From positions 68,077-132,076 of IMG/VR virus record IMGVR_UViG_3300045988_110853: a DNA stretch of 64,000 nt, one strand, 5' to 3'. Position numbers and translations under genes: made by a program. The notes under the pieces are model-generated. The model was not told the DNA's origin. It saw only the letters and a program-made list of their open reading frames with translations, and did no database searches. This document shows positions 1 to 11,960 of the stretch, piece by piece. The stretch comes from a virus. Numbering within the stretch: position 1 is the stretch's first letter; the number at the start of each line of letters is the position of its first letter.

Positions 1-30
1 GTGTTTTTTTCAAAATTTTTGCGGTCTTTC

Positions 31-174
31 TCAATATACGAAAAATAAGAAATTAAGCAAAATTAGCACAGGAATAGCGTAGACGATATTAAAAGAGTCC
101 CACCCGAGACTTTCACAGGCGTAAGCAAAAATAAAGCCAAAAACGAGGCCGAAAATGCCGATTAAAATAATCAT
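31..174 (-). CDS. small membrane protein (about 47 aa, two hydrophobic helices)
   Basis: Start ATG overlaps the TGA stop of the upstream gene (ATGA coupling). An AGAGGA Shine-Dalgarno sits 6 nt upstream. The coordinates are trimmed from the track ORF 31..216. Confidence 0.4.
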   Translation of the reverse strand: MIILIGIFGLVFGFIFAYACESLGWDSFNIVYAIPVLILLNFLFFVY

Positions 175-434
175 TCTAAATCCTCTATATGACCATAGTG
201 TTCGTTGATATGCCATTCAAGATAGGCATTAGTCGCAATCTGAATTTCCCTATCCAGCCAATCATAAAACTCTTCGGGGTCGCAGGTCGCGCGTTCATCA
301 ATAATATCAATAAGAGAAACGCGATGAGCGAGAAATTCCGAAATATCAAGAGAATCCATAGAAGAAAGAAGTTCTTCCACACATTCTCCGCGAGTAGGGA
401 ACTTTTCAGTAGAAAAATCGTGAGTGTAATACAT
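171..434 (-). CDS. hypothetical early protein (87 aa)
   Basis: Intact ORF with an AAAGGGGA ribosome-binding site 7 nt upstream. A promoter (TAGACA-N17-TATACT) lies at 466-494. The stop codon is TGA. Confidence 0.6.
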   Translation of the reverse strand: MYYTHDFSTEKFPTRGECVEELLSSMDSLDISEFLAHRVSLIDIIDERATCDPEEFYDWLDREIQIATNAYLEWHINEHYGHIEDLE

Positions 435-465
435 TGTTTATATCCCCTTTCTTTACTGTAAACAT

Positions 466-494
466 AGTATAGCAGATTATTACATTTTTGTCTA
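466..494 (-). promoter_or_regulatory. sigma-A-type promoter TAGACA-N17-TATACT
   Basis: The hexamers were read directly. It lies upstream of gene 171-434. Confidence 0.5.
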
Positions 495-552
495 TTGGTA
501 AAATACACAAATTTAGGAAAATAATTAGTTGTATTTTTAGCTAAATTTCCTA

Positions 553-581
553 TTGACAAATTGCTGGGACGGTGGTATAAT
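553..581 (+). promoter_or_regulatory. plus-strand consensus promoter TTGACA-N17-TATAAT, convergent with the early genes
   Basis: Read directly. It is followed by a GC hairpin (589-617) and then terminator 661-696. Confidence 0.5.
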
Positions 582-591
582 GGAAATTCCG

Positions 592-700
592 GCCGTGGCA
601 GGCGCAAACGGCCGGCCATTTTATCACACTATTGGATTTTTGTCAATAGGTAAAATGACTAAAAAAATGAGGTGAATTTTCACCTCATTTTTATTTGTGA
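592..700 (+). ncRNA. candidate antisense small RNA of about 105 nt (promoter 553-581, GC hairpin, terminator)
   Basis: A promoter, a structured GC stem-loop and a rho-independent terminator lie on the plus strand with no plus-strand ORF. Confidence 0.25.
661..696. terminator. hairpin GAGGTGA-attttc-ACCTC flanked by an A-run and a T-run (bidirectional terminator)
   Basis: Read directly. Confidence 0.6.
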
Positions 701-870
701 TAACTGGTAGTGATGGTTTTGAAAATCTGATAAATGCTTTCATCTTCCAGTAGCTTCTGGATAAAAGCATCAGCTTCTTCCTCGGAATCAAAACTAACCC
801 GATTGTCATAATACTGATCCCAAGGATTCTTACCGCTGTATTCGACACTGAATGTCTTTTCAATTTCCAT
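691..870 (-). CDS. hypothetical acidic protein (59 aa; MEIEKTFSVEYSGKNPWDQYYDNR...)
   Basis: Hand-translated; it falls below the ORF-track length cut-off. A GAGGGGAG ribosome-binding site precedes it and the stop is TAA. The overlapping track ORF 624..863 looks non-protein-like and runs across a terminator. Confidence 0.5.
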   Translation of the reverse strand: MEIEKTFSVEYSGKNPWDQYYDNRVSFDSEEEADAFIQKLLEDESIYQIFKTITTSYHK

Positions 871-872
871 TT

Positions 873-1064
873 TTAGTTCTCCCCTCTCATTGACCGCTCA
901 TAATTCTCAATCATGCAACGAACCATCATACCGCCGACGGAATAAGAAGGGGCAGGCTTGCCATTCACATAGTCCTTGATGATGATTTTTTCATCTTCGT
1001 TTAACTGGTTAATGCCCTCTTTGATAGCGTTAATGAGTTCCCAATTGTAAGAAGTTTCAAGCAT
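873..1064 (-). CDS. hypothetical protein (63 aa)
   Basis: Start assigned at MLETSYN with an AAAGGAAAGGA ribosome-binding site. The promoter TTGACA-N17-TATAAT at 1095-1123 is embedded in a hairpin. Confidence 0.55.
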   Translation of the reverse strand: MLETSYNWELINAIKEGINQLNEDEKIIIKDYVNGKPAPSYSVGGMMVRCMIENYERSMRGEN

Positions 1065-1094
1065 TTTTATCAATTCCTTTCCTTTGATGGTTTT

Positions 1095-1123
1095 ATTATA
1101 GCACAAGGGGCTTATTTTGTCAA
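1095..1123 (-). promoter_or_regulatory. consensus promoter TTGACA-N17-TATAAT embedded in hairpin 1101-1134
   Basis: The -35 lies in the hairpin loop and the -10 immediately 3' of the stem. Confidence 0.6.
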
Positions 1124-1142
1124 GCCCCTTGTGCTATTTTTT

Positions 1143-1595
1143 TTAGCGCTCAGATACGATACTCAGATAGCGGTTAATCATATCCATTTCGCAACCCATG
1201 TCCCGCCAATCGCAAACCACATACCCAATGAGTTCGCCGTCTGTGGTAATCGGATAAACGCCGTAAGTGCTATTATAAGCAAATGGCTTTCTTTCATCTT
1301 CCCAATCAATAGGAGTGTAGGCCGGGAAGTTTTCCATACCCCGCAGTTTCACGGTAGTGTCATAGATTGCAATAGGACGCAGACCGGAATTTGATGCCAT
1401 TGTAATAGCGGTTCGCATAGCATCTTCGCTCAGCGAGCCAAGCACCGAATACCTCTTGAAGCAAACGCAGTCGTTATCTTCAATGAAGATTTCCAGCGGG
1501 TCGCCCTCGCGGATTTTCAGAGTGCGCCGAATCTCTTTCGGGATAACCACACGTCCAAGGTCATCAATTCTGCGAACAATACCAGTAGCTTTCAT
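1143..1595 (-). CDS. AbrB/SpoVT-family (swapped-hairpin, MazE-fold) DNA-binding regulator with an extra C-terminal domain of about 100 aa
   Basis: The N-terminus MKATGIVRRIDDLGRVVIPKEIRRTLKIREGDPLEIF closely resembles the Bacillus AbrB/SpoVT N-domain (MKSTGIVRKVDELGRVVIPIELRRTL...). The gene has its own promoter at 1626-1654 and an AAAGGGG ribosome-binding site. Confidence 0.75.
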   Translation of the reverse strand: MKATGIVRRIDDLGRVVIPKEIRRTLKIREGDPLEIFIEDNDCVCFKRYSVLGSLSEDAMRTAITMASNSGLRPIAIYDTTVKLRGMENFPAYTPIDWEDERKPFAYNSTYGVYPITTDGELIGYVVCDWRDMGCEMDMINRYLSIVSER

Positions 1596-1625
1596 TTTAA
1601 TTTTCCCCTTTCATTTGATACATTA

Positions 1626-1654
1626 AGTATAGCAGAACAAAAGACTTTTGTCAA
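1626..1654 (-). promoter_or_regulatory. promoter TTGACA-N17-TATACT for the AbrB-like gene
   Basis: Read directly. Confidence 0.6.
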
Positions 1655-1659
1655 GCCTT

Positions 1660-2133
1660 TTATTCAAGATTTTTGCTTTCCGCGACAAAATATTTTGCTT
1701 CATACTGATTTGCGATAGCCTTGACTTTTGCGCTTTCCTTTTGGGTCGCGCAGTAAAAATTGAAAAGCGTATGTTTATCGCTCAATTCAATGTAAGAGTG
1801 TGGGACGTCATGTAAATCAAAATCAATGGTATTAGTGTATTTTGTCGGGACAGTCAGCTCGACTTTCCAAAGTTTATCCTTGCGCGCCTTTTCCTCAATC
1901 CACTTGACAAGGTAAACGCCCACGAAATTACAAACGGCAGTAATAGCCATTTTCAACCAAATAGGCATACCGTCCGCGGAAGTCAGCACAATTACATAGG
2001 AATAAAAACCGTATGTAATAGCATTGATGAAAGATGCGCTAAACTTTCCGCCCTTGACAGTCAAAATGCTTTTGATAGTTGACAGAATCACATTCACCGC
2101 CGTGCAAAGCGCGAACAGAAGAATTGTATTCAT
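1660..2133 (-). CDS. membrane protein (N-terminal TM helices plus a soluble C-terminus), 157 aa
   Basis: Intact ORF with hydrophobic N-terminal segments. The stop is TAA. Its start overlaps the stop of the next gene (ATGA). Confidence 0.55.
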   Translation of the reverse strand: MNTILLFALCTAVNVILSTIKSILTVKGGKFSASFINAITYGFYSYVIVLTSADGMPIWLKMAITAVCNFVGVYLVKWIEEKARKDKLWKVELTVPTKYTNTIDFDLHDVPHSYIELSDKHTLFNFYCATQKESAKVKAIANQYEAKYFVAESKNLE

Positions 2134-2369
2134 TCAATCACCTCAATATCGCAGTAAATACAGTCGGTAATATCGACGTATTCTTCAAAACTCATTCGCT
2201 TATCATCGCGGTGTGTAAAGTCAATGTAAGCATTTTCACCGTGGAGATTGTTTTCTTCATTGTAGGCGTGAGTGGCGTAGTCAAAAGCCTTGATAGCATC
2301 GGCTTCATTATAGACTACAATTTCCTTGACTTCGGGAGCATCATACCAAATAGTATATTTCTTTTTCAT
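2130..2369 (-). CDS. hypothetical protein (79 aa)
   Basis: Start at MKKKYTIWYD with an AAAGGAAAGGG ribosome-binding site. The track start is upstream at a GTG. The stop is TGA. Confidence 0.55.
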   Translation of the reverse strand: MKKKYTIWYDAPEVKEIVVYNEADAIKAFDYATHAYNEENNLHGENAYIDFTHRDDKRMSFEEYVDITDCIYCDIEVIE

Positions 2370-2442
2370 TATTATCACCCTTTCCTTTTTCTATTATAAT
2401 AATATCATATTATAATAGAAATGTCAATAGAGAGTTTTTAAT

Positions 2443-2601
2443 TTACTCTTTTAATTTTTCTAATAGGTCATCAGCACATTCATAGCTGATGCTCCGGCGG
2501 TCGCACTCGTTGGACAAAGGACAACAAGCGCAGTCATTAAAGGTTTCCGTCCAAGAGCGCAACCAGTCAATCAGGCGTAGAGTATCAACTTCTTCATACA
2601 T
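2443..2601 (-). CDS. cysteine-rich small protein (52 aa; ...CACCPLSNECDRR...)
   Basis: Hand-translated. An AAAGGAG ribosome-binding site lies 8 nt upstream. It overlaps the stop of the upstream gene and ends in TAA. Confidence 0.45.
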   Translation of the reverse strand: MYEEVDTLRLIDWLRSWTETFNDCACCPLSNECDRRSISYECADDLLEKLKE

Positions 2602-2938
2602 TGTTTTCAGTCTCCTTTACTCGGACAAAAAAGACCTTGTTATAGATTTTTGTTGCTTTAAGGTCAATCCAAAAATACACATTTCCGCATACTCGATAGA
2701 TTTTACAAGTTTCTCCGCTAACCTTTTTGACTTCCTCAAACTTCTCGGGCGTAGTAGGGTGGAAAATTGTCAGTTTGAGAAACATCGAATAGAAAGTTAA
2801 AGGAACGAACCCGATAATAATAGCAATCCACGCGAGAATGTCAGTTAAGGTATTTCTCCATTCACACCATTCATCAGTAATTGTAGCGAACGCAATACCC
2901 ACACAAAACGCGAGAATCAACCAATACCAAGCTACCAT
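2594..2938 (-). CDS. membrane protein (114 aa)
   Basis: Intact ORF with hydrophobic N-terminal helices and an AAAGGGGGGGA ribosome-binding site. Confidence 0.55.
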   Translation of the reverse strand: MVAWYWLILAFCVGIAFATITDEWCEWRNTLTDILAWIAIIIGFVPLTFYSMFLKLTIFHPTTPEKFEEVKKVSGETCKIYRVCGNVYFWIDLKATKIYNKVFFVRVKETENNV

Positions 2939-2989
2939 TGTTTTATCCCCCCTTTATTTGATGTATACATTTTACCAGATTATGGGAAT

Positions 2990-3166
2990 TTTGTCTATTG
3001 GCAGAATAGCCAAAAATCCGCTCGAAAATTTGTTGAATCTACATCTTGACAAAAACTCGGCGCGCCACAGTCGTTCGCGCGCCGGCCATTTTATCACATT
3101 TAAGGAACTTTGTCAATAGTGAAATTAAACAAAAAAAATCTCCCAAATTTGGGAGATTTTTCATTT
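2990..3166. repeat. intergenic cassette copy B (stem CGGCGCGCC..GGCGCGCCG, covariant with copy A)
   Basis: The stem-loop lies at 3050-3078 and is followed by ggccattttatcac as in copy A. Confidence 0.6.
3131..3166. terminator. hairpin TCTCCCAAATTTGGGAGA with flanking A/T runs
   Basis: Read directly. Confidence 0.6.
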
Positions 3167-3332
3167 AATTTTCTACTGCTTCAAGGTCGGCGAGAATGGG
3201 GATAAGCTTATCCTCAATGAGCGAAACGCGGTTAATCATTTCTTGGTCGGGGGTAGGAAGCTTCTGAATCCCATAACGCGCCATCATACAGACCTTTTCG
3301 ACAACTTCGCTAAGCTTTTCCTTATTTTCCAT
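3165..3332 (-). CDS. hypothetical protein (55 aa)
   Basis: Start at MENKEKL with a TAAGGAGA ribosome-binding site. The stop is TAA and a terminator follows at 3131-3166. Confidence 0.5.
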   Translation of the reverse strand: MENKEKLSEVVEKVCMMARYGIQKLPTPDQEMINRVSLIEDKLIPILADLEAVEN

Positions 3333-3441
3333 TTTTCTATTCTCCTTAAAATAAATTTTTTGGAAAGGGTGGCAGTTGATAGGCTCAACTGCCAAAGCCA
3401 TAGGAAAGGGGGAGAGAAACGCGAACAAATGTTCGGTTTTA

Positions 3442-3681
3442 TCAGGGAATAATCAGTTCCGCATCGTAGACAGGCCGAACCATACAGGGCGCGCCAAAGC
3501 AGTCGAGATTGTAAGTGTCCAAATTGAGAGCGTTCCATTCTTCTGCGCCGGTATTTTCATCAACCACTGACGCAGTTTTGATGTAATAGACGTTTCCGGA
3601 AGCGGGGTCTTGAAAAATCATACCTTCGGGGAGGTCTTCAAATGCAACCATTTTGTTGCTATGCTTAACAGTAATTTTCAT
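3442..3681 (-). CDS. hypothetical protein (79 aa)
   Basis: An AAGGAG ribosome-binding site lies 8 nt upstream of the ATG (MKITVK...). The stop is TGA. Confidence 0.55.
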   Translation of the reverse strand: MKITVKHSNKMVAFEDLPEGMIFQDPASGNVYYIKTASVVDENTGAEEWNALNLDTYNLDCFGAPCMVRPVYDAELIIP

Positions 3682-3686
3682 TTCAT

Positions 3687-4040
3687 TCACTCCTTATTAT
3701 AAAAGCGGTAAGCCCATTCAACGATTTCGTGGCTTGTAGTAGTCCATTCCTTTTTGGGGCTGTCAAACTTTTCCGCGTATTTTTTGACGTAGTCGTTGTA
3801 TTCCATGCGTGCGGTATCGTATGCTCCAATAGCTACAAGCAAGGACTGTTTTGCTTTTTCAGCATCAGAGACGGCTTTCTTGCGGTCTGCGCCCTCGGGG
3901 TAAAGGTCGATTACGCCTAAACGAGTAATGACTTGTGTTGTTTTTTCATACACGCGGTCGCGCTCTTCCCAAACCTCATAGAGCAGTTCGTCCGCGCGAT
4001 TCTCATAGGGATTGAATGGCTTTTTCTTCTTACCGAACAT
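3687..4040 (-). CDS. hypothetical protein (117 aa, MFGKKKKPFNPYENRADELLYEVWEERDRV...)
   Basis: The C-terminal 117 aa of the track ORF 3687..4328 are protein-like. The upstream part runs through intergenic sequence and the stop of the next gene. Confidence 0.5.
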   Translation of the reverse strand: MFGKKKKPFNPYENRADELLYEVWEERDRVYEKTTQVITRLGVIDLYPEGADRKKAVSDAEKAKQSLLVAIGAYDTARMEYNDYVKKYAEKFDSPKKEWTTTSHEIVEWAYRFYNKE

Positions 4041-4368
4041 TTTTCTTTTTCTCCTTTTCTTTCTTGTTCCAAATTCTGTCGAAGAACGCATTTGCGAGAA
4101 CACGCTTGTAAAGGTTATCAGGCATAGGGCGTTCGCCGTGCTTATTTCTCCAAATCGCGGTGATTTTATCAATATCCGCGATATAGGCGGTAATGAGTGT
4201 GCCGTCCGTAGCACTACGAACAAGAAGAACGCCTGTTGTAGTGATAGTGTAGAGGACATCTTCCTCAACGCTGTCGATATATGGCTCACCAATACCGATA
4301 TTGTCATAGATGAAGAACAAGCGGTCAATGCGGTCTTGCGTGGCGTGTTTTGACATTCTGATAAGCAT
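4030..4368 (-). CDS. hypothetical protein (112 aa)
   Basis: Start at MLIRMSK with an AGAAAGAGG ribosome-binding site. A promoter lies at 4406-4434. Confidence 0.55.
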   Translation of the reverse strand: MLIRMSKHATQDRIDRLFFIYDNIGIGEPYIDSVEEDVLYTITTTGVLLVRSATDGTLITAYIADIDKITAIWRNKHGERPMPDNLYKRVLANAFFDRIWNKKEKEKKKNVR

Positions 4369-4405
4369 TTGATTTACCTCTTTCTTTCTCTCTTGGATTG
4401 ATTGT

Positions 4406-4434
4406 ATTATACCATATAGGGAGGGGCTTGTCAA
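4406..4434 (-). promoter_or_regulatory. promoter TTGACA-N17-TATAAT within hairpin GGGAGGGGCTTGTCAAGCCCCT
   Basis: Read directly. Confidence 0.6.
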
Positions 4435-4440
4435 GCCCCT

Positions 4441-4590
4441 TTAATACAATTGTTCCCCATCGTGGTAGCGCTCATATTCCGCTTCAAGGAAGTCGAGAAT
4501 AGTTTCAAAGTCGTCTGCGTCCGCGGGGTCTGCAAAGGTCTTTTCAAGAACTTCGTTAGTGTGTCTATTGTAAACTCGAACCATATCCAT
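4441..4590 (-). CDS. hypothetical acidic protein (49 aa, MDMVRVYNRHTNEVLEKTFADPADADDFETILDFLEAEYERYHDGEQLY)
   Basis: Hand-translated with an AGAAAGAGGTAAG ribosome-binding site. The stop is TAA. Confidence 0.45.
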   Translation of the reverse strand: MDMVRVYNRHTNEVLEKTFADPADADDFETILDFLEAEYERYHDGEQLY

Positions 4591-4659
4591 TTTACTTACC
4601 TCTTTCTTGATTGTATATGTATTATATCATGCGAAAGGGCTTTTGTCAAGCCCTTTTTA

Positions 4660-4866
4660 TCAGAAATGATAATTTCTGATGATGACGTCGAACTTGGGAG
4701 CATATACGGTTTTCCACTGTTCTTCAAGGGTCTTATCATTCGTGCGATATGCTTCCCACGAGACTGCGCCATAGGCGTTGTGCTTGAAAAGCTCGGCATC
4801 ACTGGGCATTTGCTCGGCATAGAGAAGCTGGGTCTTGATAAAAGAATGAATGTTGTAGTTAGTCAT
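4660..4866 (-). CDS. hypothetical protein (68 aa)
   Basis: Start at MTNYNIHS. It has a conserved leader with a GAGGT ribosome-binding site. A promoter TAGACA-N17-TATACT lies at 4906-4934. Confidence 0.5.
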   Translation of the reverse strand: MTNYNIHSFIKTQLLYAEQMPSDAELFKHNAYGAVSWEAYRTNDKTLEEQWKTVYAPKFDVIIRNYHF

Positions 4867-4905
4867 TTTATTTACCTCATCTTTCTGTTCCCTTGGAACA
4901 ATTAT

Positions 4906-4934
4906 AGTATAGCAAATGCTTAGGCATTTGTCTA
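4906..4934 (-). promoter_or_regulatory. promoter TAGACA-N17-TATACT
   Basis: It lies upstream of the conserved leader of gene 4660-4866. Confidence 0.5.
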
Positions 4935-4944
4935 TTGACGGATC

Positions 4945-4974
4945 GCACAAAATTGGGAAAAATAATTTGTGCAA
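4945..4974. promoter_or_regulatory. inverted repeat GCACAAAATT-N9-AATTTGTGCAA (operator-like)
   Basis: Read directly. Confidence 0.4.
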
Positions 4975-4992
4975 ATTTTCGCAACTTTTTGC

Positions 4993-5021
4993 TTGACAAA
5001 TTGCTGGCCCTGTGATATACT
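4993..5021 (+). promoter_or_regulatory. plus-strand promoter TTGACA-N17-TATACT, convergent with the early genes
   Basis: Same architecture as 553-581. A GC hairpin lies at 5029-5055 and a terminator at 5109-5140. Confidence 0.5.
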
Positions 5022-5029
5022 GAAAATTC

Positions 5030-5140
5030 CGGCCGCAGCGTGCGTTGGCGGCCGGCCGAATTATACCACATTGAGATGGTTTTGTCAATAGTCAAATGAA
5101 ACAAAAATTTCAGGCGAGATTTGGTTATCTCGCCTGAAAA
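5030..5140 (+). ncRNA. candidate antisense small RNA of about 105 nt, a paralogue of the 592-700 element
   Basis: Same promoter/hairpin/terminator arrangement as at 592-700. Confidence 0.25.
5109..5140. terminator. hairpin CAGGCGAGAT..ATCTCGCCTG plus AAAA
   Basis: Read directly. Confidence 0.6.
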
Positions 5141-6968: not shown

Positions 6969-7059
6969 AATGTTTTCCCTTTCCGGTTTGTTTGGGTTTT
7001 CCTTCCCTTACTGTGATTATAGTATAGCACCGATTCGGGATTTTGTCTATTGGCAGAAT

Positions 7060-7089
7060 ACACAAACTTTCACCATAAAAATTGTGCAA
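7060..7089. promoter_or_regulatory. inverted repeat ACACAAA-N14-ATTGTGCAA (operator-like)
   Basis: Read directly. Confidence 0.35.
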
Positions 7090-7165
7090 ATGGTCTATTG
7101 ACAGCAAATTCCGGCCGCGCCTGGCGTGCACGGCCGGCCGAATGAATATGCAAAATGGAGCGTAT

Positions 7166-7208
7166 AAAAATTCAGCGGATTTTTATGCAATCCGCTGAAT
7201 TTTCATTT
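7166..7208. terminator. hairpin ATTCAGCGGAT..ATCCGCTGAAT with flanking A/T runs
   Basis: Read directly. Confidence 0.6.
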
Positions 7209-7215
7209 CAAATTT

Positions 7216-7455
7216 TTAACCATCAACATAAATGATAAGAATATCGCCCTTAGCTTTCAAACCAGTGACAGGCAATCCCAGCACCCATTCTTCACTTGCA
7301 CCCAAAAAATTGCCATTCAAAGTCATATGACCCTTGCGGTCTTTGAGATAACGGCCATCAGTGTTTTCATTTATCACTTCGACGCCGTTCCCCTCATAGA
7401 ACATCAACGCACCTTTTACCGTGCCAATCACATTTTTAACCATGCTTAAAGTCAT
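7216..7455 (-). CDS. hypothetical protein (79 aa)
   Basis: Start at MTLSMVKN. Its leader of about 45 nt is identical to that of gene 4660-4866. A promoter TTGACT-N17-TATACT lies at 7486-7514. Confidence 0.5.
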   Translation of the reverse strand: MTLSMVKNVIGTVKGALMFYEGNGVEVINENTDGRYLKDRKGHMTLNGNFLGASEEWVLGLPVTGLKAKGDILIIYVDG

Positions 7456-7485
7456 TTTGTTTACCTCATCTTTCTGTTCCCCTTG

Positions 7486-7514
7486 GAACAATTATAGTAT
7501 AGCATAGGGTATAG
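7486..7514 (-). promoter_or_regulatory. promoter TTGACT-N17-TATACT
   Basis: Read directly. Confidence 0.55.
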
Positions 7515-7532
7515 CAAAAGTCAATAGTCAAA

Positions 7533-7575
7533 ATGGTAAAAAGAATCGGCAGGATTTTGTGTATCCTGCCGATTC
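7533..7575. terminator. hairpin GAATCGGCAGGAT..ATCCTGCCGATTC plus TTTT
   Basis: Read directly. Confidence 0.6.
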
Positions 7576-7577
7576 TT

Positions 7578-7772
7578 TTAGTCTTCCCAACTCTCGATGA
7601 CTTCGCCGGTCATAGCGTCGATAATGTCAACCGAAAGAACATTATCTGCGTCGGCGAACTTCTGACCGAGGGCGTATGCGTTTTCCTGTCCCGCGACAGA
7701 CACTTCATAGCGATAGCGGTTGTTATCACCAGCCTTGTAGTTGTAGTAGTTAACAGAAACGATAAATAACAT
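7578..7772 (-). CDS. hypothetical protein (64 aa)
   Basis: An AAAGGGGAAC ribosome-binding site precedes it. A promoter lies at 7803-7830. The stop is TAA. Confidence 0.5.
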   Translation of the reverse strand: MLFIVSVNYYNYKAGDNNRYRYEVSVAGQENAYALGQKFADADNVLSVDIIDAMTGEVIESWED

Positions 7773-7802
7773 TTTTTTGTTCCCCTTTCTTTTTATACTC
7801 TT

Positions 7803-7830
7803 ATTATAGCACGGTTTTAGGATTTGTCAA
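7803..7830 (-). promoter_or_regulatory. promoter TTGACA-N16-TATAAT
   Basis: Read directly. Confidence 0.55.
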
Positions 7831-7854
7831 TAGTTTTTTTGAAAAAAGTTTGAA

Positions 7855-7892
7855 AAAAAATAAGGGCGTTTCCGCCCTTATTTTTCATAAAC
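7855..7892. terminator. hairpin AAGGGCG-TTTC-CGCCCTT with flanking A/T runs
   Basis: Read directly. Confidence 0.6.
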
Positions 7893-8135
7893 GATAATGT
7901 TGTTGCCTAACTTTTCAACGCGAGAATCTTCACAAAAGTGATAGGTAAAATCCGCGTAAAGATGTTTGAGAAATTCGCGTCTCCATTCGCGGGACTTCGG
8001 CTCTAATTCAAAAAGAATGTAAAGCGTTTCCTCTAATCGGTCGAGAAAGTTTTCAGTGTCCGCGATGTTGAACTTGCCCGCGAGCTTTGGCGTGGGGTTA
8101 TAAGCGCTAATAGTGAGAATGTTGTAAGTTGTCAT
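7878..8135 (-). CDS. hypothetical protein (85 aa)
   Basis: An AAAGGAGA ribosome-binding site precedes it. A promoter lies at 8166-8194. Confidence 0.5.
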   Translation of the reverse strand: MTTYNILTISAYNPTPKLAGKFNIADTENFLDRLEETLYILFELEPKSREWRREFLKHLYADFTYHFCEDSRVEKLGNNIIVYEK

Positions 8136-8165
8136 GGAAAAATCTCCTTTTCATTTGATGTTTTT

Positions 8166-8194
8166 ATTATACACGATAGTATGGAACTTGTCAA
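8166..8194 (-). promoter_or_regulatory. promoter TTGACA-N17-TATAAT
   Basis: Read directly. Confidence 0.6.
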
Positions 8195-8199
8195 TACTT

Positions 8200-8240
8200 A
8201 AAATAGAAAAAAGAGAAGTTTTTTCAACTTCTCTTTTTCA
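8200..8240. terminator. hairpin AGAGAAGTT..AACTTCTCT plus TTTT
   Basis: Read directly. Confidence 0.55.
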
Positions 8241-8328
8241 GCTTCTTTTCTGCCCATTCAATCAGCGCGCCCGCGGTGATTGTGCCAACGTAAATGAAAA
8301 GTAAAACTAAACCATCATGCAAACTCAT
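8224..8328 (-). CDS. possible 34-aa membrane microprotein (MSLHDGLVLLFIYVGTITAGALIEWAEKKLKKRS)
   Basis: A GGAGG ribosome-binding site lies 9 nt upstream. It has a single hydrophobic helix. A terminator follows. Confidence 0.35.
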   Translation of the reverse strand: MSLHDGLVLLFIYVGTITAGALIEWAEKKLKKRS

Positions 8329-8329
8329 T

Positions 8330-8458
8330 TTAATATTCCTCCACATACTCTGTAAAGACAAGCTCCCAGTCCGGGCCGAGATCCGGAGTTTTGCAGTATA
8401 ATGACTGTCGAATGTCATGCTCATTAGTGATTTTGTTGATAAACTCGAATTCATACAT
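8330..8458 (-). CDS. hypothetical small protein (42 aa, MYEFEFINKITNEHDIRQSLYCKTPDLGPDWELVFTEYVEEY)
   Basis: Hand-translated with a GAAAAGGAG ribosome-binding site. A promoter lies at 8490-8518. The track ORF 8224..8454 in another frame is probably an artefact. Confidence 0.4.
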   Translation of the reverse strand: MYEFEFINKITNEHDIRQSLYCKTPDLGPDWELVFTEYVEEY

Positions 8459-8489
8459 TGTTGTTATCTCCTTTTCTTATTGTATCTAC

Positions 8490-8518
8490 ATTATAGCAGA
8501 CAACAGGGCATTTGTCAA
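8490..8518 (-). promoter_or_regulatory. promoter TTGACA-N17-TATAAT
   Basis: Read directly. Confidence 0.6.
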
Positions 8519-8524
8519 TACCAT

Positions 8525-8562
8525 TTATAAAAAAATGTACGAGGTTTAATCCTCGTACATTT
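8525..8562. terminator. hairpin TGTACGAGG..CCTCGTACA with flanking A/T runs
   Basis: Read directly. Confidence 0.55.
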
Positions 8563-8842
8563 CCATTAACGATTTGATTTTTTCAATCGCATTTTCAATT
8601 TCTTCTACATAGTCTGCTTGTTCTTCGCTTGCGCGCATTGCCTGTTCATATGCGTCATAGATGGCTTCGCACTGTTCACGGGTATATTCTTCTTCTGGTG
8701 CGTGCTCCATGGCGACGACTGCCGCCCACGCGAGCGTTTCCGCGTCATCGAGGTTATCAGCCTTTTCCGTGGCAGTGGTAAGTTCGTGTTCGAGGCGCGT
8801 TTTTTCGAGCGAGAGGGTCTTGAGAAATTCGGTATTAGTCAT
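8546..8842 (-). CDS. acidic hypothetical protein (98 aa)
   Basis: An AAAAGGAGA ribosome-binding site precedes it. A promoter lies at 8875-8902 and a terminator at about 8520-8560. Confidence 0.55.
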   Translation of the reverse strand: MTNTEFLKTLSLEKTRLEHELTTATEKADNLDDAETLAWAAVVAMEHAPEEEYTREQCEAIYDAYEQAMRASEEQADYVEEIENAIEKIKSLMEMYED

Positions 8843-8874
8843 TGTGGTGTATCTCCTTTTCTTTTGATACCTCT

Positions 8875-8902
8875 ATTATAGCACTTCTGGACTGAATGTC
8901 AA
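8875..8902 (-). promoter_or_regulatory. promoter TTGACA-N16-TATAAT
   Basis: Read directly. Confidence 0.55.
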
Positions 8903-9180
8903 TAGGTTTTTGAAAAAAATATTTATTCATCAGGGCTGTATAAATATTCATGTATAAATATTCATTTTCGGGTGCATAAAGGCGACTGGCATAATGCACA
9001 AATTCGTTTGAAAATTTTTGTGCAACTTGCCTATTGCAAAACTCGGCGCGCTGCGGCCCACAGCGCGCCGGCCAAATGTATATGTATGATTATTCATGTA
9101 TATTCATTGCATATTCATTGTATATTTATTCATACATAATATGCAAAAATAGAGAGAGACTTAATAAGCCTCTCTCCACA
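8893..9180. repeat. intergenic cassette copy E, with flanking TATTCAT heptamer repeats
   Basis: The stem-loop lies at 9044-9073. Seven TATTCAT copies lie at 8925-8970 and 9090-9135. Confidence 0.6.
8996..9025. promoter_or_regulatory. inverted repeat GCACAAA-N14-TTTGTGCAA (operator-like)
   Basis: Read directly. Confidence 0.4.
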
Positions 9181-9526
9181 CCTTGATTATTTCATCATCT
9201 GCTATATCATCTGTGTCATTGTCGTTTATCCACAAAAGCAGAAAATCATTATCGTCAATGGTCATATTCTCAACTTCCCATTGGTTGCCGCGTTCGTCCA
9301 GTAGCGTGATAGTGTTACCATTTCGGGAAGCGACCTCTGCGCCGATAAAGCGTATGCTTCCTCTCTCTGTGCCAGCGCCACACCATTCATCTAATGCGGT
9401 GAGGTCGTAGGACTGCGGCGCTTCCTCGCAGGCTTCCGCGGTTGCGTGGTCATGGAATGAGCCGAAGAAAGACACGGAGAGAATGATGGCAATGACCATG
9501 GTGATGATTTTGGAAATGTTTTTCAT
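9161..9526 (-). CDS. secreted or membrane-anchored protein (121 aa; N-terminal signal/TM, acidic C-terminus)
   Basis: Intact ORF with an AGAAAGAGG ribosome-binding site. It has a hydrophobic N-terminus. Confidence 0.55.
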   Translation of the reverse strand: MKNISKIITMVIAIILSVSFFGSFHDHATAEACEEAPQSYDLTALDEWCGAGTERGSIRFIGAEVASRNGNTITLLDERGNQWEVENMTIDDNDFLLLWINDNDTDDIADDEIIKVWREAY

Positions 9527-9548
9527 TTTGTTTTACCTCTTTCTTACT

Positions 9549-9692
9549 TTATAGGTTAGTAGCGATAGTGACAACAGCAATAAGCATGAGCGTGCTTGAG
9601 ATAGCTTTACCTATGCTCTTGCTATCTATGGCATAGACAAAATTATATGCGCTTATAGCGGTAAGCACAATAATAGCGGCAATGATAGACAT
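9549..9692 (-). CDS. possible 47-aa membrane protein
   Basis: Hand-translated with an AGAGGGGAG ribosome-binding site. The sequence is two hydrophobic segments. Confidence 0.35.
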   Translation of the reverse strand: MSIIAAIIVLTAISAYNFVYAIDSKSIGKAISSTLMLIAVVTIATNL

Positions 9693-9722
9693 GGCATATG
9701 CTCCCCTCTTTGAGCGAGTGGG

Positions 9723-10196
9723 TTAAACCCACTCGCTGAATAACTCACTGATGAAGTCATCGTGTACGTCATCAGGCAGTTGATCGATGGTGCACTCATA
9801 GGTGCTTACCACGGTAAGCGATGAGCCATTCTCAAGGTTCTCGCGCTCAAACTTATCACGCTCGCCAGACGAGAGGAAAAATGCGGTATAATCGTAAGTG
9901 TCTTCTCCATCATTGATGGAATAGTCCACCACCTTAAAGCGTGTTTTGTTCCAGAGGTTCGCTATGATGGACAAATCCATGGCCAGCTCTTCCTCGCGGC
10001 GGACAGCTTCGAGAGACGCCTTATACTTGCGCCATGCGGCTACCGTAAAGTCTCTTATGCCGCACCCAATAAGACAATGGTATTCCTCTAAGTCTTTGAT
10101 AACCAGTTTACGTCCCTCGCGCACCATATCCCAAGCATCTTCCGCCATTGCGTTGATGGTGACAGCATCATATTTATGCAAGCCCTGAATTTTCAT
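9723..10196 (-). CDS. hypothetical protein (157 aa)
   Basis: Intact ORF with a GGGAAGGG ribosome-binding site. A hairpin at 9712-9735 overlaps the stop. Confidence 0.55.
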   Translation of the reverse strand: MKIQGLHKYDAVTINAMAEDAWDMVREGRKLVIKDLEEYHCLIGCGIRDFTVAAWRKYKASLEAVRREEELAMDLSIIANLWNKTRFKVVDYSINDGEDTYDYTAFFLSSGERDKFERENLENGSSLTVVSTYECTIDQLPDDVHDDFISELFSEWV

Positions 10197-10277
10197 TGTG
10201 TAGCCCTTCCCGCGCTTTTTGCGCTATCGTGTTATATGTAGGTATGTTCCCCCTGTGGGGAGTGAGGGCTTGCGCCC

Positions 10278-10571
10278 TCACTTTGCAATCTTTGCGGTAA
10301 CGGAAGCCGCACGCGGCGCGCCGACTTTCTTGTACTTATCAAAGCACTCGGCATAGAGTTTCGGCGCCTTGTTGCGGAACATCACCGTGTCGAGCGTTTC
10401 AGTAGCCTTGCCGCCCTTGCCAACAATAACAGTAAACTTATTGTAAGTAAAGGTAACGCTTTCGCCGTTAGCTTCCTCGCGGGCTTCTGCCTTGAGTAAT
10501 TCTAATTGTTCCTTGAGCACGTCTATCTGCGCGGAAAGCTCACACATCTTTTTAATTTTGTTGTTCGTCAT
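10278..10571 (-). CDS. hypothetical protein with an N-terminal coiled coil (97 aa)
   Basis: Start at MTNNKIKK with an AAGAGGA ribosome-binding site. The stop is TGA. A hairpin at 10261-10282 overlaps the stop. Confidence 0.55.
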   Translation of the reverse strand: MTNNKIKKMCELSAQIDVLKEQLELLKAEAREEANGESVTFTYNKFTVIVGKGGKATETLDTVMFRNKAPKLYAECFDKYKKVGAPRAASVTAKIAK

Positions 10572-10666
10572 TTTGTAAATCCTCTTTTCATGTATTTTGC
10601 TGTTCGGTGTTCCGCCGTTCAGCATGGTTACATGGTAGCAGATTCAGCCACGGGATACAATTGACG

Positions 10667-10712
10667 GATTGCACAAAGATTTGTTTTGTACGGGGCGGGC
10701 TTTTGTGCAATC
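10667..10712. promoter_or_regulatory. perfect 11-bp inverted repeat GATTGCACAAA-N24-TTTGTGCAATC (candidate operator) at the early/late junction
   Basis: Read directly. Related half-sites GCACAAA/TTTGTGCAA also lie at 4945-4974, 7060-7089, 8996-9025 and 503-538. Confidence 0.45.
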
Positions 10713-10999
10713 TACCGCCGGGCGGCACCCTTGCATCATACCTTTGCATTTTTATTCACTCAAAAATGAATAAAACCTGCATGGGGCGGGGTGTATTTCG
10801 GGAAAAATAAATTTTTATTTATTATTTTTTCTTTTGCCTGGTCAAAACACAATCTAAATCAATTTTCAATTTCAAATTACGGATTAAAACAATAATCTTA
10901 AATTACGATTTTTTCTTTCTGCCCCTTTTAGGCTTCTCTCTCCACATAAGGGTATATAATCCAGAAGTAGCAGAATAAGTAGCTTTCTGCTGATACTTT

Positions 11000-11395
11000 T
11001 TAGCAACTGCCTTCAATGGACTGAGTGGTTTCCGCATTTAATTTTTCCTCCATATATTCGATTAATTTATCTTTATATTTACAACTATCAATATATTTAT
11101 TAATAGTATCTATATCATATTTTTCCATTAAATGCTCTAATACATATTTGTATTTGTTTAACTGATATTCTTCCTGTTCTTTTTTAGTGCTTAATTGAGC
11201 CTTTTCCGCGTCTGATAAAGGTCTGTAAGTAATTGTTCTTGATCCATTATCCTTTTTCTCAATACGTATTGTTTTAAACAATTTCCAATCTCTTACAAAA
11301 GGATCTTTATCTCTTGTTGCATTAAAATATTCTTGTTCTAATCTAAATATTACCGCATCTATCCCTCTTACTTCAAAAGGCTGGTTCCGCTCCAT
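11000..11395 (-). CDS. hypothetical protein (131 aa), in the AT-rich region
   Basis: Start at MERNQPF with a GGGAGGA ribosome-binding site. The stop is TAA. Confidence 0.5.
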   Translation of the reverse strand: MERNQPFEVRGIDAVIFRLEQEYFNATRDKDPFVRDWKLFKTIRIEKKDNGSRTITYRPLSDAEKAQLSTKKEQEEYQLNKYKYVLEHLMEKYDIDTINKYIDSCKYKDKLIEYMEEKLNAETTQSIEGSC

Positions 11396-11765
11396 CTTCA
11401 ATATCCTCCCATTCAAATGTTCCATCATCTAATTCATATACAAACGCTTGCTTATAAAATGATGAAACAATTCCATCATTTGTAATTCCTTTTGGGCTAT
11501 TTTTCGCATCATGGAAACAATTATAAACAATTAATCCTTGCGTTTCATATCGCGAAAAATCTACTGCTCTTCCCTCAAAATCATAATTATAAAATATATT
11601 TAACAATAGCATACATTCATATTGCGCGATCGGCCATTTATTTAATTCTTTCTATTGATTTTCCATTTTCTAATATAGCACCCAGAAAGCTTTTCTATAT
11701 AACCATAAAAAAAGGAGCGATGCTACTAACGCACAACTCAATATTACAATAAAAACAATTTTCAT
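11373..11765 (-). CDS. hypothetical secreted/membrane protein (130 aa) containing 2 in-frame TAG sense codons
   Basis: The track ORF 11373..11612 extends in frame through two TAG codons to an ATG at 11765. That ATG is preceded by AAAAGGAG. The sequence starts MKIVFIVILSCALVASLLF.... The stop is TGA. Confidence 0.5.
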
Positions 11766-11907
11766 AAATACTCCTTTTCTTTTTTTTCTTATAATAATGA
11801 TAAAATAAAAAAAATAAAATGTCAAGTTGTGGCGCGTGCTTGGGCGAAAGTTATTTGTTTTATTAAAAAAATTTTTAAATATAAAAAGAAAAATTTTTAA
11901 ATGAAAC

Positions 11908-11936
11908 TTGACAGAAAAAATTTTTTCAAGTATAAT
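11908..11936 (+). promoter_or_regulatory. consensus promoter TTGACA-N17-TATAAT at the head of the plus-strand late/structural operon
   Basis: Read directly. A GGAGGT ribosome-binding site and ATG 11961 follow. Confidence 0.6.
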
Positions 11937-11960
11937 ATAAATATAGACTGGAGGTAAAAA

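What the first reader, a model, noticed from the sequence alone, without database searches (positions are those of the whole stretch)
1..11960. Standard-code, GC-rich early module joined to a TAG-recoded, AT-rich late module
The first 10.6 kb is about 48% GC and consists of about 31 tiny minus-strand genes that all stop at TAA or TGA. The remaining 52 kb is about 30% GC and contains the TAG-recoded genes. Both parts use the same consensus TTGACA-N17-TATAAT promoters and GGAGG-type ribosome-binding sites. They are therefore probably one replicon in which the early (host-takeover) genes are readable by the unmodified host translation system. The late genes would need the recoded state. The composition step of 18% GC at about 10.6-10.9 kb is unusually sharp for one genome. 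It could equally mark a mosaic junction or a recently acquired early cassette.
Basis: partly seen in the sequence, partly recalled or inferred. Interest (0 to 1): 0.8.

Follow-up and report, generated by a model that had tools for sequence, protein, structure and literature searches.

The report
Two codon dialects in one phage
This is one real gut phage genome in which a fast-changing block of small early genes is written in ordinary, host-readable code with G/C-rich codons. The conserved rest of the genome reads the stop codon TAG as glutamine and uses very A/T-rich codons. The code split is already known, but its tight link to codon composition has not been described.

Summary
GC is 41.5% for 1-10,800 (not 48%) and 30.7% for the rest. 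The change point is near 10,800.

The step is almost entirely a third-codon-position effect: GC3 is 0.49 against 0.18, while GC2 is equal.

TAG is a sense codon in the AT-rich part. ORF coverage rises from 51% to 97% when TAG is read through, and TAG alternates with CAA/CAG (Gln) in relatives. The roughly 30 to 37 small minus-strand genes never use TAG.

This is not a chimera. The same junction occurs in more than 40 independent contigs of a roughly 195-kb siphovirus family distantly related to phAss-1.

The GC-rich block is an island of about 18.5 kb. It is hypervariable and carries about 20 consensus sigma-A promoters. Its edge at about 10.85 kb is also the homology breakpoint among near-identical relatives.

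The code and GC boundary lies inside the leftward unit, not at the strand switch.

A polarised substitution analysis suggests that A/T at third positions is actively favoured in the late genes.

The early/late code split is already published. The GC3 coupling is a new variant. Interest is moderate.

The parts
1..10850 (-). The part within the window of a hypervariable, GC3-rich, TAG-free early-gene array. It holds about 30 ribosome-binding-site-supported small ORFs of 23-157 aa. The island continues about 7.7 kb beyond the left edge of the window in relatives.
   Evidence: GC is 0.415 and GC3 is 0.49. All stops are TAA or TGA. Similarity to genomes whose backbone is 96-98% identical is mosaic, at 77-93%. 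The far end of the island was seen in L087 and L138. The proteins are mostly ORFans in Pfam and PHROGs.
1095..8902 (-). A series of about 20 consensus or near-consensus sigma-A promoters (TTGACA-N17-TGnTATAAT), each 20-30 nt upstream of a ribosome-binding site and ATG. Perfect sites are at 1095-1123, 4406-4434, 4621-4649, 5060-5088, 6241-6269, 6613-6641, 7803-7830, 8166-8194, 8490-8518 and 8875-8902.
   Evidence: There are 12 perfect matches in the window against 0.07 expected. Their context is shown. Family-wide density is 1.49 per kb in early arrays against 0.06 per kb in late modules. Several sit inside terminator-like hairpins.
1143..1595 (-). Early gene with an AbrB/MazE-type N-terminal domain (antitoxin-like). 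It is one of only four of the 20 early-block proteins scanned that matched any family.
   Evidence: Pfam PF04014, E 3e-10. PHROG 4681 'antitoxin', E 3e-19.
6660..6968 (-). Conserved 102-aa early protein of unknown function.
   Evidence: It has 4,575 homologues with no Pfam domain and no informative name, all from metagenome and other assembly sources, on contigs of up to 195 kb.
10750..10900 (.). The junction. The GC change point, the code boundary and the homology breakpoint between variable array and conserved backbone all fall here.
   Evidence: The change point is at 10,800. Backbone alignments of 96-98% identity start at window position 10,845-10,901 in 12 of 18 close relatives.
10903..11428 (-). 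AT-rich minus-strand backbone genes (10,903-11,037 and 11,000-11,428), conserved at backbone identity.
   Evidence: GC is 0.30-0.40 and GC3 is 0.27-0.38. They lie within the 96-98% identity block.
11373..11765 (-). First leftward gene. It encodes a 130-aa protein with an N-terminal hydrophobic (membrane-type) segment, is AT-rich, and has two in-frame TAG codons.
   Evidence: Translation is. It is a single conserved ORF in relatives, where the TAG positions alternate with Gln codons.
11797..11936 (.). Divergent promoter region. The leftward promoter is TTGACA-17-TATCAT (11825-11797, minus strand). The rightward promoter is a perfect TTGACA-17-TATAAT (11908-11936, plus strand).
   Evidence: The rightward promoter is conserved in 40 of 44 distinct relatives.
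11961..13016 (+). First rightward gene (351 aa, two in-frame TAGs, C-terminal CxxC...CxxC motif). PHROG 5767 is labelled 'sigma factor', but that function could not be verified.
   Evidence: PHROG E 9e-55. It carries 1-8 TAGs in all recoded relatives and none in 13 standard-code loci. There was no support from Pfam, NCBIfam, PDB sequence search or fold search.
13066..63451 (+). Conserved, AT3-rich, TAG-to-Gln recoded structural module. It includes terminase large subunit (14253-15992), portal (16462-18024), a major-capsid-like gene (20573-21679), a 2,972-aa tape-measure-like gene (28709-37627) and tail genes.
   Evidence: GC3 is 0.18. Gln-type codons are CAA 383, CAG 65 and TAG 248. Relatives were found by tblastn.
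579..9074 (-). Five copies of a GC-rich 5' hairpin element (579-621, 3052-3088, 5019-5061, 7101-7143, 9038-9074). Each follows an early promoter with no ORF start. Two copies face a convergent perfect promoter on the + strand (553-581 and 4993-5021).
   Evidence: Repeat families D10 and D12. Predicted hairpins are -17 to -26 kcal/mol. There is no Rfam match.

Best explanation
**What it is.** The window covers the junction between two gene compartments of a single phage genome. The phage is a siphovirus of about 195 kb from gut Bacillota, distantly related to phAss-1.

**Compartment A.** This is window 1-10,850, part of an island of about 18.5 kb. It is a hyperplastic array of small genes.
- Nearly every gene has its own consensus sigma-A promoter and a strong ribosome-binding site.
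- The genes contain no TAG at all, so they give the same proteins before and after a code switch.
- They use mid-GC codons.
- They turn over quickly by recombination.
- They are most likely the immediate-early host-takeover and anti-defence set, transcribed by host RNA polymerase and translated by the host's own tRNAs. This step is inferred.

**Compartment B.** This is the conserved backbone from 10,850 onward. It includes the first leftward genes and the whole structural module.
- It reads TAG as glutamine through a phage tRNA with anticodon CUA. The sense reading is shown; the tRNA was found in close relatives.
- It uses extremely A/T-rich third codon positions.

**What the GC step is.** The step is the visible edge between these two codon regimes. 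It is not an assembly artefact and not a fresh acquisition.

**Most likely cause (inferred).** The split is probably maintained by selection tied to when and how each class is translated. Early genes must work with the host tRNA pool. Late genes are tuned to the infected-cell pool, which includes the phage's own tRNA array with the suppressor and several tRNAs that read A-ending codons.

**Possible gating (inferred).** The two genes beside the divergent sigma-A promoters both contain TAGs. They can therefore be transcribed early but completed only once suppression is available.
For: **One replicon**
- The junction and GC step are present in dozens of independent contigs.

**Code**
- ORF coverage rises from 51% to 97% when TAG is sense.
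- TAG aligns with Gln and alternates with CAA/CAG among relatives.
- tRNA-CUA is present in contigs whose backbone is 96-97% identical.

**TAG-free early genes**
- None of about 30 stops in the window is TAG.
- Family-wide stop counts are TAA 308, TGA 139 and TAG 16.

**Codon regime**
- GC3 is 0.49 against 0.18, with GC2 at 0.337 against 0.330.
- A 2-kb TAG-rich cassette with GC3 of 0.17-0.18 sits between two TAG-free blocks.
- phAss-1 shows the same coupling: TAG-containing genes have GC3 of 0.42 against 0.57 for TAG-free genes, with rho -0.49 and p 1e-7.

**Promoters**
-.

**Hypervariability**
-.
- The pos2/pos3 singleton rate ratio is 0.33 in early genes against 0.17 in late genes.

**Selection rather than regional mutation bias**
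- Outgroup-polarised singletons give an equilibrium GC of about 0.38-0.44 in both compartments, while late GC3 is 0.16-0.19.
- The singletons look like real substitutions. Ts/Tv is 3.0 (early) and 9.3 (late), and they are enriched at third positions.
- In late genes, AT-increasing third-position variants segregate at higher frequency than GC-increasing ones. Mean derived allele frequency is 0.45 against 0.30, p 4e-8.
Against: - Timing of expression is not measured.
- The host is unknown, because MAG bins carrying this phage are taxonomically scattered. Adaptation to host tRNAs therefore cannot be tested.
- Only part of the phage tRNA set was recovered, and only from relatives.
- The five TAG-poor late genes, which include the capsid-like gene and are presumably highly expressed, prefer T-ending codons. 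They do not use the early genes' C/G-ending set, so early codon usage is not simply 'optimal' usage.
- Within the late module, TAG density does not correlate with GC3 (rho -0.06).
- The frequency-spectrum test uses about 18 metagenome-assembled genomes, one outgroup and parsimony. The opposite trend seen in early genes could be inflated by mis-polarisation.
- Standard-code relatives also show a smaller early/late GC3 gap, so recoding is not required for the split.
- The dinucleotide signature of the island differs from the backbone. Delta* is 92-179 against 35-101 within the backbone. Continuous gene import would also produce this.
Confidence: 0.6

Rival explanations
1. Accessory-pool explanation. 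The early array is a shared, recombining gene pool that circulates among many related phages, including standard-code lineages with higher GC. Its composition reflects that pool's history. The backbone's extreme AT3 is a separate, older property. No selection on codon usage tied to expression time is needed.
For: - Mosaic structure, and divergence 3-5 times higher than the backbone.
- The homology breakpoint coincides with the GC step.
- The dinucleotide signature is distinct.
- Early arrays have GC3 of 0.32-0.61 (0.44 or higher in 26 of 30 relatives), whatever the backbone GC3.
- One early protein family has 4,575 members.
Against: - It does not explain why late third positions sit far below the equilibrium implied by their own substitution spectrum.
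- It does not explain why AT-increasing variants reach higher frequency there.
- TAG stops are nearly absent from the pool (16 of 463), which implies adaptation to the recoded context.
- It does not explain the 2-kb AT-rich, TAG-rich cassette embedded between TAG-free blocks.
Confidence: 0.2
2. Recently acquired cassette. A GC-richer block was captured from a host chromosome or another mobile element and has not yet ameliorated.
For: - The composition step is sharp.
- CpG and other dinucleotide signatures differ.
- The junction coincides with a recombination boundary.
Against: - The GC step is present across the family, down to about 71% identity of the neighbouring gene, with unrelated gene content.
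- For the two early proteins searched, no homologue carried a source name or Pfam domain placing it in a bacterial chromosome; the hits come from metagenome and other assembly sources, on contigs of up to 192-195 kb.
- There is no integrase, tRNA target or flanking direct repeat at the edges.
- None of about 30 stops is TAG.
- Array composition (0.40-0.50) is close to its own equilibrium GC of about 0.38-0.42, so it is not decaying fast.
Confidence: 0.06
3. Non-equilibrium drift. The whole genome now mutates towards about 40-44% GC, for example after a host shift. The fast-evolving array has already arrived there and the slow backbone lags behind.
For: - The singleton-derived equilibrium GC is similar in both compartments.
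- The array evolves faster.
Against: - Recoded relatives whose backbones are only 70-79% identical, so that synonymous sites are largely saturated, all keep late GC3 at 0.15-0.27.
- phAss-1 tail genes are also at 0.20-0.26. Low GC3 is therefore a long-term steady state.
- The frequency asymmetry in late genes points to a fixation bias rather than only a changed mutational input.
Confidence: 0.1
4. Chimeric assembly of two unrelated genomes.
For: Only the abrupt change in GC, strand and code.
Against: - The same junction appears in more than 40 distinct contigs from many samples and assemblers, including NCBI MAG contigs.
- The AT-rich backbone continues about 1 kb into the leftward unit.
- The island is flanked on both sides by the same AT-rich, TAG-recoded genome.
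Confidence: 0.01

Closest known systems
Stop-codon-recoded (code 15, TAG to Gln) phages with a 'dual-coded' early block (Ivanova 2014; Yutin 2021; Borges et al., bioRxiv 10.1101/2021.08.26.457843; Pfennig et al. Mgcod, bioRxiv 10.1101/2022.06.29.495998)
   Same: - In-frame TAG is concentrated in structural and late genes.
- A block lacks TAG both as sense and as stop codon.
- A suppressor tRNA-CUA is encoded by the phage lineage.
- The host is predicted to use the standard code.
   Different: - The code boundary is not at the strand switch.
- No suppressor tRNA sits at the 5' end of the recoded block. It lies about 30-40 kb away, among TAG-containing minus-strand genes.
- The TAG-free block is a small hypervariable island of ORFan genes, not the replication/transcription module.
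- The code partition coincides with a 0.3 difference in GC3. Term searches of these two preprints (for 'GC content', 'GC skew', 'composition' and similar) found no mention of it.
phAss-1 / proposed Phassvirus group (Babkin et al. 2023, PMC10607447; GenBank OQ749652)
   Same: - Large gut siphoviruses with a giant tape-measure gene.
- TAG-to-Gln recoding of virion genes, tRNA-CUA genes and a large tRNA set.
- The capsid-like protein is 50% identical.
- My re-analysis shows the same coupling of GC3 and TAG density in phAss-1.
   Different: - It is a different genus-level lineage with no nucleotide similarity.
- The genome is about 195 kb against 136 kb, and overall GC is lower.
- In phAss-1 the early array, tRNA array and middle genes form one long leftward unit.
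- The paper does not report the compositional split.
Host-takeover or hyperplastic early regions of virulent phages (SPO1 host-takeover module; T4-type hyperplastic regions with promoter-early stem-loop cassettes). Recalled from my own knowledge.
   Same: - Arrays of very small ORFan genes, each with its own strong host-type promoter.
- Promoter and hairpin cassettes repeated between genes.
- Modular shuffling among close relatives.
   Different: - No sequence homology was tested or found.
- Those systems are not associated with a code change or, to my knowledge, with a large GC3 offset from the rest of the genome.

Membership tests
Code-15 (TAG to Gln) recoded phage | In-frame TAG in conserved phage genes at positions that are Gln in homologues. 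Genes are fragmented under code 11 and restored when TAG is sense. | tested here: met
   ORF coverage rises from 51% to 97%. TAG aligns mostly with Q and alternates with CAA/CAG in relatives. Terminase, portal and capsid-like proteins are recovered only after TAG is read as Q.
Code-15 (TAG to Gln) recoded phage | Phage-encoded suppressor tRNA with anticodon CUA. | tested here: met
   It is not in the window or within 10-18 kb of it. It is present in four contigs of the same clade (backbone 96-97% identical), inside a tRNA array.
Dual-coded early block (Mgcod sense) | A block whose genes translate identically under code 11 and code 15, with no TAG as sense or stop. | tested here: met
   No TAG stops or in-frame TAGs in about 30 ribosome-binding-site-supported ORFs. 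Family-wide, 3.5% of called stops are TAG.
Dual-coded early block (Mgcod sense) | The code switch coincides with the switch of protein-coding strand, and the suppressor tRNA lies at the 5' end of the recoded strand block. | tested here: not met
   The minus-strand gene 11373-11765 has two sense TAGs. Minus-strand genes around the tRNA array carry TAGs. There is no tRNA at 11.6-12.0 kb.
Proposed Phassvirus genus / phAss-1 group | Nucleotide similarity and synteny with phAss-1 (genus level). Membership of the wider monophyletic group is judged by signature proteins. | tested here: not met
   There is no megablast match. The capsid-like protein is 50% identical to phAss-1 and about 40% identical to Enterococcus phages EF1, EF5, H1 and the VRE9 series. 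This fits the wider group only, and no phylogeny was built.
Phage sigma factor (label of PHROG 5767) for gene 11961-13016 | Recognisable sigma-70 regions 2 and 4, by sequence profile or by fold. | tested here: inconclusive
   The PHROG hit has E 9e-55. There were no hits in Pfam, NCBIfam or PDB sequences. The AlphaFold model has pLDDT 65, and no Foldseek PDB match has E below 0.2.
Horizontally acquired genomic island | Integrase, tRNA target or direct-repeat borders. Homologues in a donor genome of matching composition. Patchy presence among relatives. | tested here: not met
   No border features were found. For the two proteins searched, no hit could be placed in a bacterial donor genome: none had a source name or Pfam domain, and the longest contigs were the size of this phage's genome. 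A GC3-rich array is present at this position in most relatives.
Multi-promoter early / host-takeover array | Many strong host-type promoters, each preceding small genes. Expression immediately after infection. | tested here: inconclusive
   The promoter architecture is met. Timing cannot be tested with these tools.

The most novel reading that the evidence does not exclude
Late genes of this phage family may be written in a private codon dialect: TAG for Gln plus A/T-ending codons such as TTA, AGA, ATA, GGA, GTA and CAA. Selection would actively maintain this dialect. It would be decoded efficiently only after the phage's own tRNA array is expressed. That array includes the suppressor CUA and tRNAs that read A-ending codons, such as Ile-UAU and Val-UAC here and Leu-UAA and Gly-UCC in a more distant relative. 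Under this reading, codon composition is a second, graded translational lock on late genes, layered on the all-or-none TAG lock. The early array is held at host-like codon usage by the opposite pressure.
Probability: 0.3. Interest if true: 0.7.

Novelty: new variant of a known kind. Interest (0 to 1): 0.45.

Why it matters
Stop-codon recoding in phages is currently explained as a timer or lock on late and lysis genes. If the recoded genes are also held by selection at an extreme codon composition, the unit of regulation would be the whole decoding regime, meaning the tRNA pool, and not a single codon. Here that composition tracks TAG use down to 2-kb cassettes and recurs in a published relative. 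That idea is testable with synonymous recoding and tRNA supply experiments.

The result also matters for annotation and binning.
- Mixed-composition phage genomes like this one are split or mis-binned. Several copies sit in MAGs labelled Mollicutes, Treponema or Bacteroidales.
- Tools that segment by code assume that the code switch follows the strand switch, which fails here.

The hypervariable, promoter-dense early island is also a concentrated source of candidate host-takeover and anti-defence genes.

Tried and rejected
- **Nucleotide search.** Megablast of both parts against 50,697 GenBank phages gave no match.
- **RNA families.** Rfam at gathering thresholds over the whole window gave no match.
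- **tRNAs near the window.** ARAGORN on the window, and on relatives' DNA up to 10-18 kb either side, found none. The suppressor was only found by a pattern scan derived from phAss-1 suppressor tRNAs.
- **Early proteins.** Pfam and PHROGs on 20 early-block proteins gave only an AbrB/MazE domain and three PHROGs of unknown function.
- **'Sigma factor' label of 11961-13016.** I tried to verify it with Pfam, NCBIfam, PDB sequence search and AlphaFold plus Foldseek. Nothing supported it, so the mechanism does not rely on it.
- **Host identification.** The terminase search across 185,579 species genomes hit MAGs of scattered taxonomy (Acutalibacteraceae, Lachnospiraceae, Mollicutes, Treponema, Bacteroidales and others). 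These are mis-binned phage contigs and give no host call.
- **Late-promoter motif.** The candidate TAGAGTAATG has only two exact copies, which is not above chance.
- **'Early genes are simply codon-optimised'.** Rejected, because the TAG-poor late genes (which include the capsid-like gene and are presumably highly expressed) prefer a different, T-ending set.
- **Gene-by-gene link inside the late module.** GC3 and TAG density do not correlate there (rho -0.06).
- **First unpolarised singleton count.** It was misleading because singletons on the outgroup branch were included. It was redone with an explicit outgroup.
- **Apparent coding gap at 49.2-50.8 kb.** It is explained by TTG start codons and is not a feature.

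Full report

GC is 0.415 for 1-10,800 and 0.307 for the rest. The maximum-likelihood change point is at 10,800. In 200-bp windows GC falls from 0.485 at 10,600 to 0.28 at 10,800, and z is 22. The mean step is 11 points, not 18.

On the + strand right of 11,961, ORFs of at least 100 aa cover 51% under code 11 and 97% when TAG is sense. The longest ORF grows to 2,982 codons stop to stop, a 2,972-aa protein from its first ATG. No such gain comes from freeing TGA. Individual genes carry up to 60 in-frame TAGs.

Left of about 10,850 there are roughly 30 ribosome-binding-site-supported minus-strand ORFs of 23-157 aa, or 37 with weaker candidates. All end in TAA or TGA. Shine-Dalgarno cores precede 27 of 30 early genes and 22 of 29 late genes.

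**2. What kind of step is it?**

The step is a codon-usage step. GC1, GC2 and GC3 are 0.487, 0.337 and 0.491 in early genes and 0.416, 0.330 and 0.184 in late genes. Intergenic GC is 0.34 against 0.29.

Gln-type codons are CAA 15, CAG 32 and TAG 0 in early genes, and CAA 383, CAG 65 and TAG 248 in late genes.

Three codon regimes can be told apart:
- Early genes use a balanced set rich in C/G endings.
- Most late genes use TTA, AGA, ATA, GGA, CAA and AAA heavily.
- Five TAG-poor late genes, which include the capsid-like gene and are probably highly expressed, strongly prefer T-ending codons in four-fold families.

**3. What phage is it?**

PHROGs identify the terminase large subunit, the portal and a virion structural protein. 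The capsid-like protein is 50% identical to that of phAss-1 (OQ749652). It is about 40% identical to Enterococcus phages EF1, EF5, H1 and the VRE9 series. There is no nucleotide-level match to deposited phages.

phAss-1 is a published code-15 gut siphovirus with 36 tRNAs, three of them tRNA-CUA (PMC10607447). Its authors propose a host in the order Eubacteriales of the class Clostridia.

**4. One replicon, not a chimera.**

A search with the gene next to the junction found 475 relatives in IMG/VR, and 80 loci were fetched. Contigs reach 190-201 kb.

The upstream block is GC-richer than the downstream block in most of them, from 99% down to about 71% identity of that gene. NCBI MAG contigs also carry the phage, and one of them, at 99% terminase identity, aligns across the junction into the early array.

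Walking outward in close relatives gave the following picture:
- The GC-rich block ends about 7.7 kb left of the window. It is therefore an island of about 18.5 kb.
- It is followed by a convergent 2-kb cassette with GC3 of 0.17-0.18. One 207-aa ORF in that cassette has six TAGs.
- Beyond that lies another minus-strand, TAG-free block with GC3 of 0.30-0.51.
- Right of the window the DNA stays AT-rich.

**5. The junction is a homology breakpoint.**

In 12 of 18 genomes whose backbone is 96-98% identical to the window, that high-identity alignment starts at window position 10,845-10,901. Left of it, similarity is patchy at 77-93%, with insertions and replacements. Relatives whose backbones are 70-79% identical share essentially no nucleotide similarity in the array.

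Even so, their arrays are also GC3-rich, at 0.44-0.61 in 26 of 30 relatives analysed. They also avoid TAG stops: TAA 308, TGA 139 and TAG 16. So the property is conserved while the genes are not.

Two early proteins were searched. One has only 11 close homologues. The other has 4,575. No hit had a source name or Pfam domain that would place it in a bacterial chromosome, and their longest contigs were 181-195 kb.

**6. Strand does not define the code.**

The minus-strand genes at 10,903-11,765 belong to the AT-rich conserved backbone. Gene 11373-11765 is a single conserved ORF with two in-frame TAGs. In relatives these positions alternate between TAG and Gln codons.

The first rightward gene (11961-13016) has two TAGs here. 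It has 1-8 TAGs in every recoded relative and none in 13 standard-code loci.

Minus-strand genes around the tRNA array also contain TAGs. Low GC3 therefore goes with TAG use more closely than strand does.

phAss-1 behaves the same way. Early-array genes have GC3 of 0.6-0.8 and almost no TAGs. Tail genes have GC3 of 0.20-0.26 and up to 110 TAGs. Overall rho is -0.49 with p 1e-7.

Standard-code relatives show a smaller early/late gap.

**7. Promoters.**

There are 12 perfect TTGACA-N16-18-TATAAT sites against 0.07 expected. Ten face leftward within 1-8,902, one is antisense at 553, and one at 11,908 precedes the first rightward gene. With one mismatch allowed there are about 20 in the array.

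Across the family the density is 1.49 per kb in arrays and 0.06 per kb in late modules. The promoter before the first rightward gene is present in 40 of 44 distinct loci.

Both genes flanking the divergent promoters contain TAGs. They could therefore be transcribed by host polymerase early yet completed only after suppression begins. This is an inference.

The 'sigma factor' label of 11961-13016 rests on one PHROG name and could not be confirmed.

**8. Recoding machinery.**

A pattern built from phAss-1 suppressor tRNAs hit four contigs of this clade. ARAGORN run on three of them finds a 90-nt tRNA-CUA with a long variable arm. It lies inside a dispersed minus-strand tRNA array containing Tyr, Val-UAC, Ile-GAU, Ile-UAU, His, Leu-AAG, Leu-UAG, Ser, Phe, Asp and Asn. 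The array lies roughly 30-40 kb beyond the island.

**9. Why two compositions?**

I aligned 17-19 close genomes and polarised variants with a lineage about 92% identical.

Singletons look like real substitutions. Ts/Tv is 3.0 in early genes and 9.3 in late genes, and they are enriched at third positions. They imply an equilibrium GC of about 0.38-0.44 in both compartments.
- The array sits near that value, at 0.40-0.50.
- Late third positions, at 0.16-0.19, sit far below it.

In late genes the ratio of GC-increasing to AT-increasing third-position variants falls with derived frequency, through 4.0, 2.95, 2.89 and 1.22. Mean derived frequency is 0.30 against 0.45, with p 4e-8.

Early genes show the opposite trend. 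That result could be inflated by mis-polarisation.

This argues against a region-specific mutation bias and against an un-ameliorated recent import. It favours a fixation bias towards A/T endings in late genes. Because low late GC3 persists across deeply diverged recoded relatives, a transient non-equilibrium state is unlikely.

The cause of that bias is not shown. Tuning to the phage-supplemented tRNA pool is my preferred reading.

The island's dinucleotide signature differs from the backbone's. Both the codon-regime reading and the accessory-pool reading are compatible with this.

**10. Comparison with what is known.**

Code-15 phages with TAG-free ('dual-coded') early blocks and recoded late blocks are established. 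Recoding in this wider phage group is published.

My searches did not find any report of an intragenomic GC3 partition that tracks the code. Borges et al. link low genome-wide GC to the origin of recoding. This case shows the same association inside single genomes.

**Verdict.** This is a genuine and well-supported feature. It is a new variant of a known kind and of moderate interest.

Noticed in passing
window 579-621, 3052-3088, 5019-5061, 7101-7143, 9038-9074 (minus strand); + strand promoters at 553-581 and 4993-5021: Five copies of a GC-rich hairpin (GGCCGGCC...GGCCGG, -17 to -26 kcal/mol) sit at the very 5' end of transcripts from early promoters that are followed by no ribosome-binding site or ORF. 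Each is about 100 nt upstream of a second promoter (TAGACA-N17-TGCTATACT) and its gene. Two copies face a convergent perfect promoter, which would make a short antisense RNA. They could be 5' stabilisers or small regulatory RNAs. There is no Rfam match.
   Followed up: partly
window 1098-1137, 5807-5838, 6616-6655: Several early promoters are embedded in a hairpin that carries TTGACA in or beside its loop and is followed by a T-run on the opposite strand. These terminator/promoter cassettes are repeated between genes (repeat families D3 and D6). They could act as recombination points for shuffling of the array, reminiscent of T4 promoter-early stem-loop elements.
   Followed up: partly
L087 19,700-20,261 / L138 9,400-10,000 (relative contig 118370, about 10 kb left of the window start): Six-frame translations upstream of the TAG-rich 207-aa gene show repeated peptide strings. 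This implies direct DNA repeats (iteron-like) next to a possible replication-initiator-like gene, so it is a candidate replication origin. Its only Pfam hit is weak (DUF6945, E 0.009).
   Followed up: no
window 28,596-28,630 and 37,690-37,725: A shared motif of about 35 nt (TTAATTAATTTTTTA...TAGAGTAATG) precedes the 2,972-aa tape-measure-like gene and the following 1,134-aa gene. It is a possible late promoter, but there are only two copies and the core is not enriched above chance.
   Followed up: partly
window 37,7xx, 49,27x, 59,6xx: Several late genes appear to start with TTG after a strong ribosome-binding site. With ATG-only calling this leaves apparent gaps, for example 49.2-50.8 kb. That stretch actually encodes two tail-fibre-like proteins, each beginning xVKFxxGS.
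   Followed up: partly
window 63,46x-64,000 (minus strand, runs off the right end): A convergent minus-strand gene has a LytTR-type DNA-binding domain (Pfam E 2.5e-4, just below the curated cutoff). It marks the end of the 51.5-kb rightward structural block.
   Followed up: partly
L096-L117 (NCBI MAG records): Contigs of this phage family are binned into MAGs labelled Mollicutes, Tenericutes, Treponema, Bacteroidales, Muribaculaceae, Gastranaerophilales and others. One 'uncultured Mollicutes' MAG holds a 163,874-bp contig with 99% terminase identity, so some low-GC 'bacterial' bins may be largely phage.
   Followed up: no
IMGVR_UViG_3300032167_000002 (402,311 bp; L048, L055, L177): One contig carries two copies of the junction gene about 204 kb apart, at 73% and 74% identity to the window. 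It is either a concatenation of two related genomes or an assembly join of two strains.
   Followed up: no
relatives L029, L061-L062, L065-L066, L068-L072 against the rest: The family mixes standard-code, partly recoded (for example L032, L047, L055) and heavily recoded lineages at the same locus. This gives a natural series for studying how recoding spreads through a genome.
   Followed up: partly
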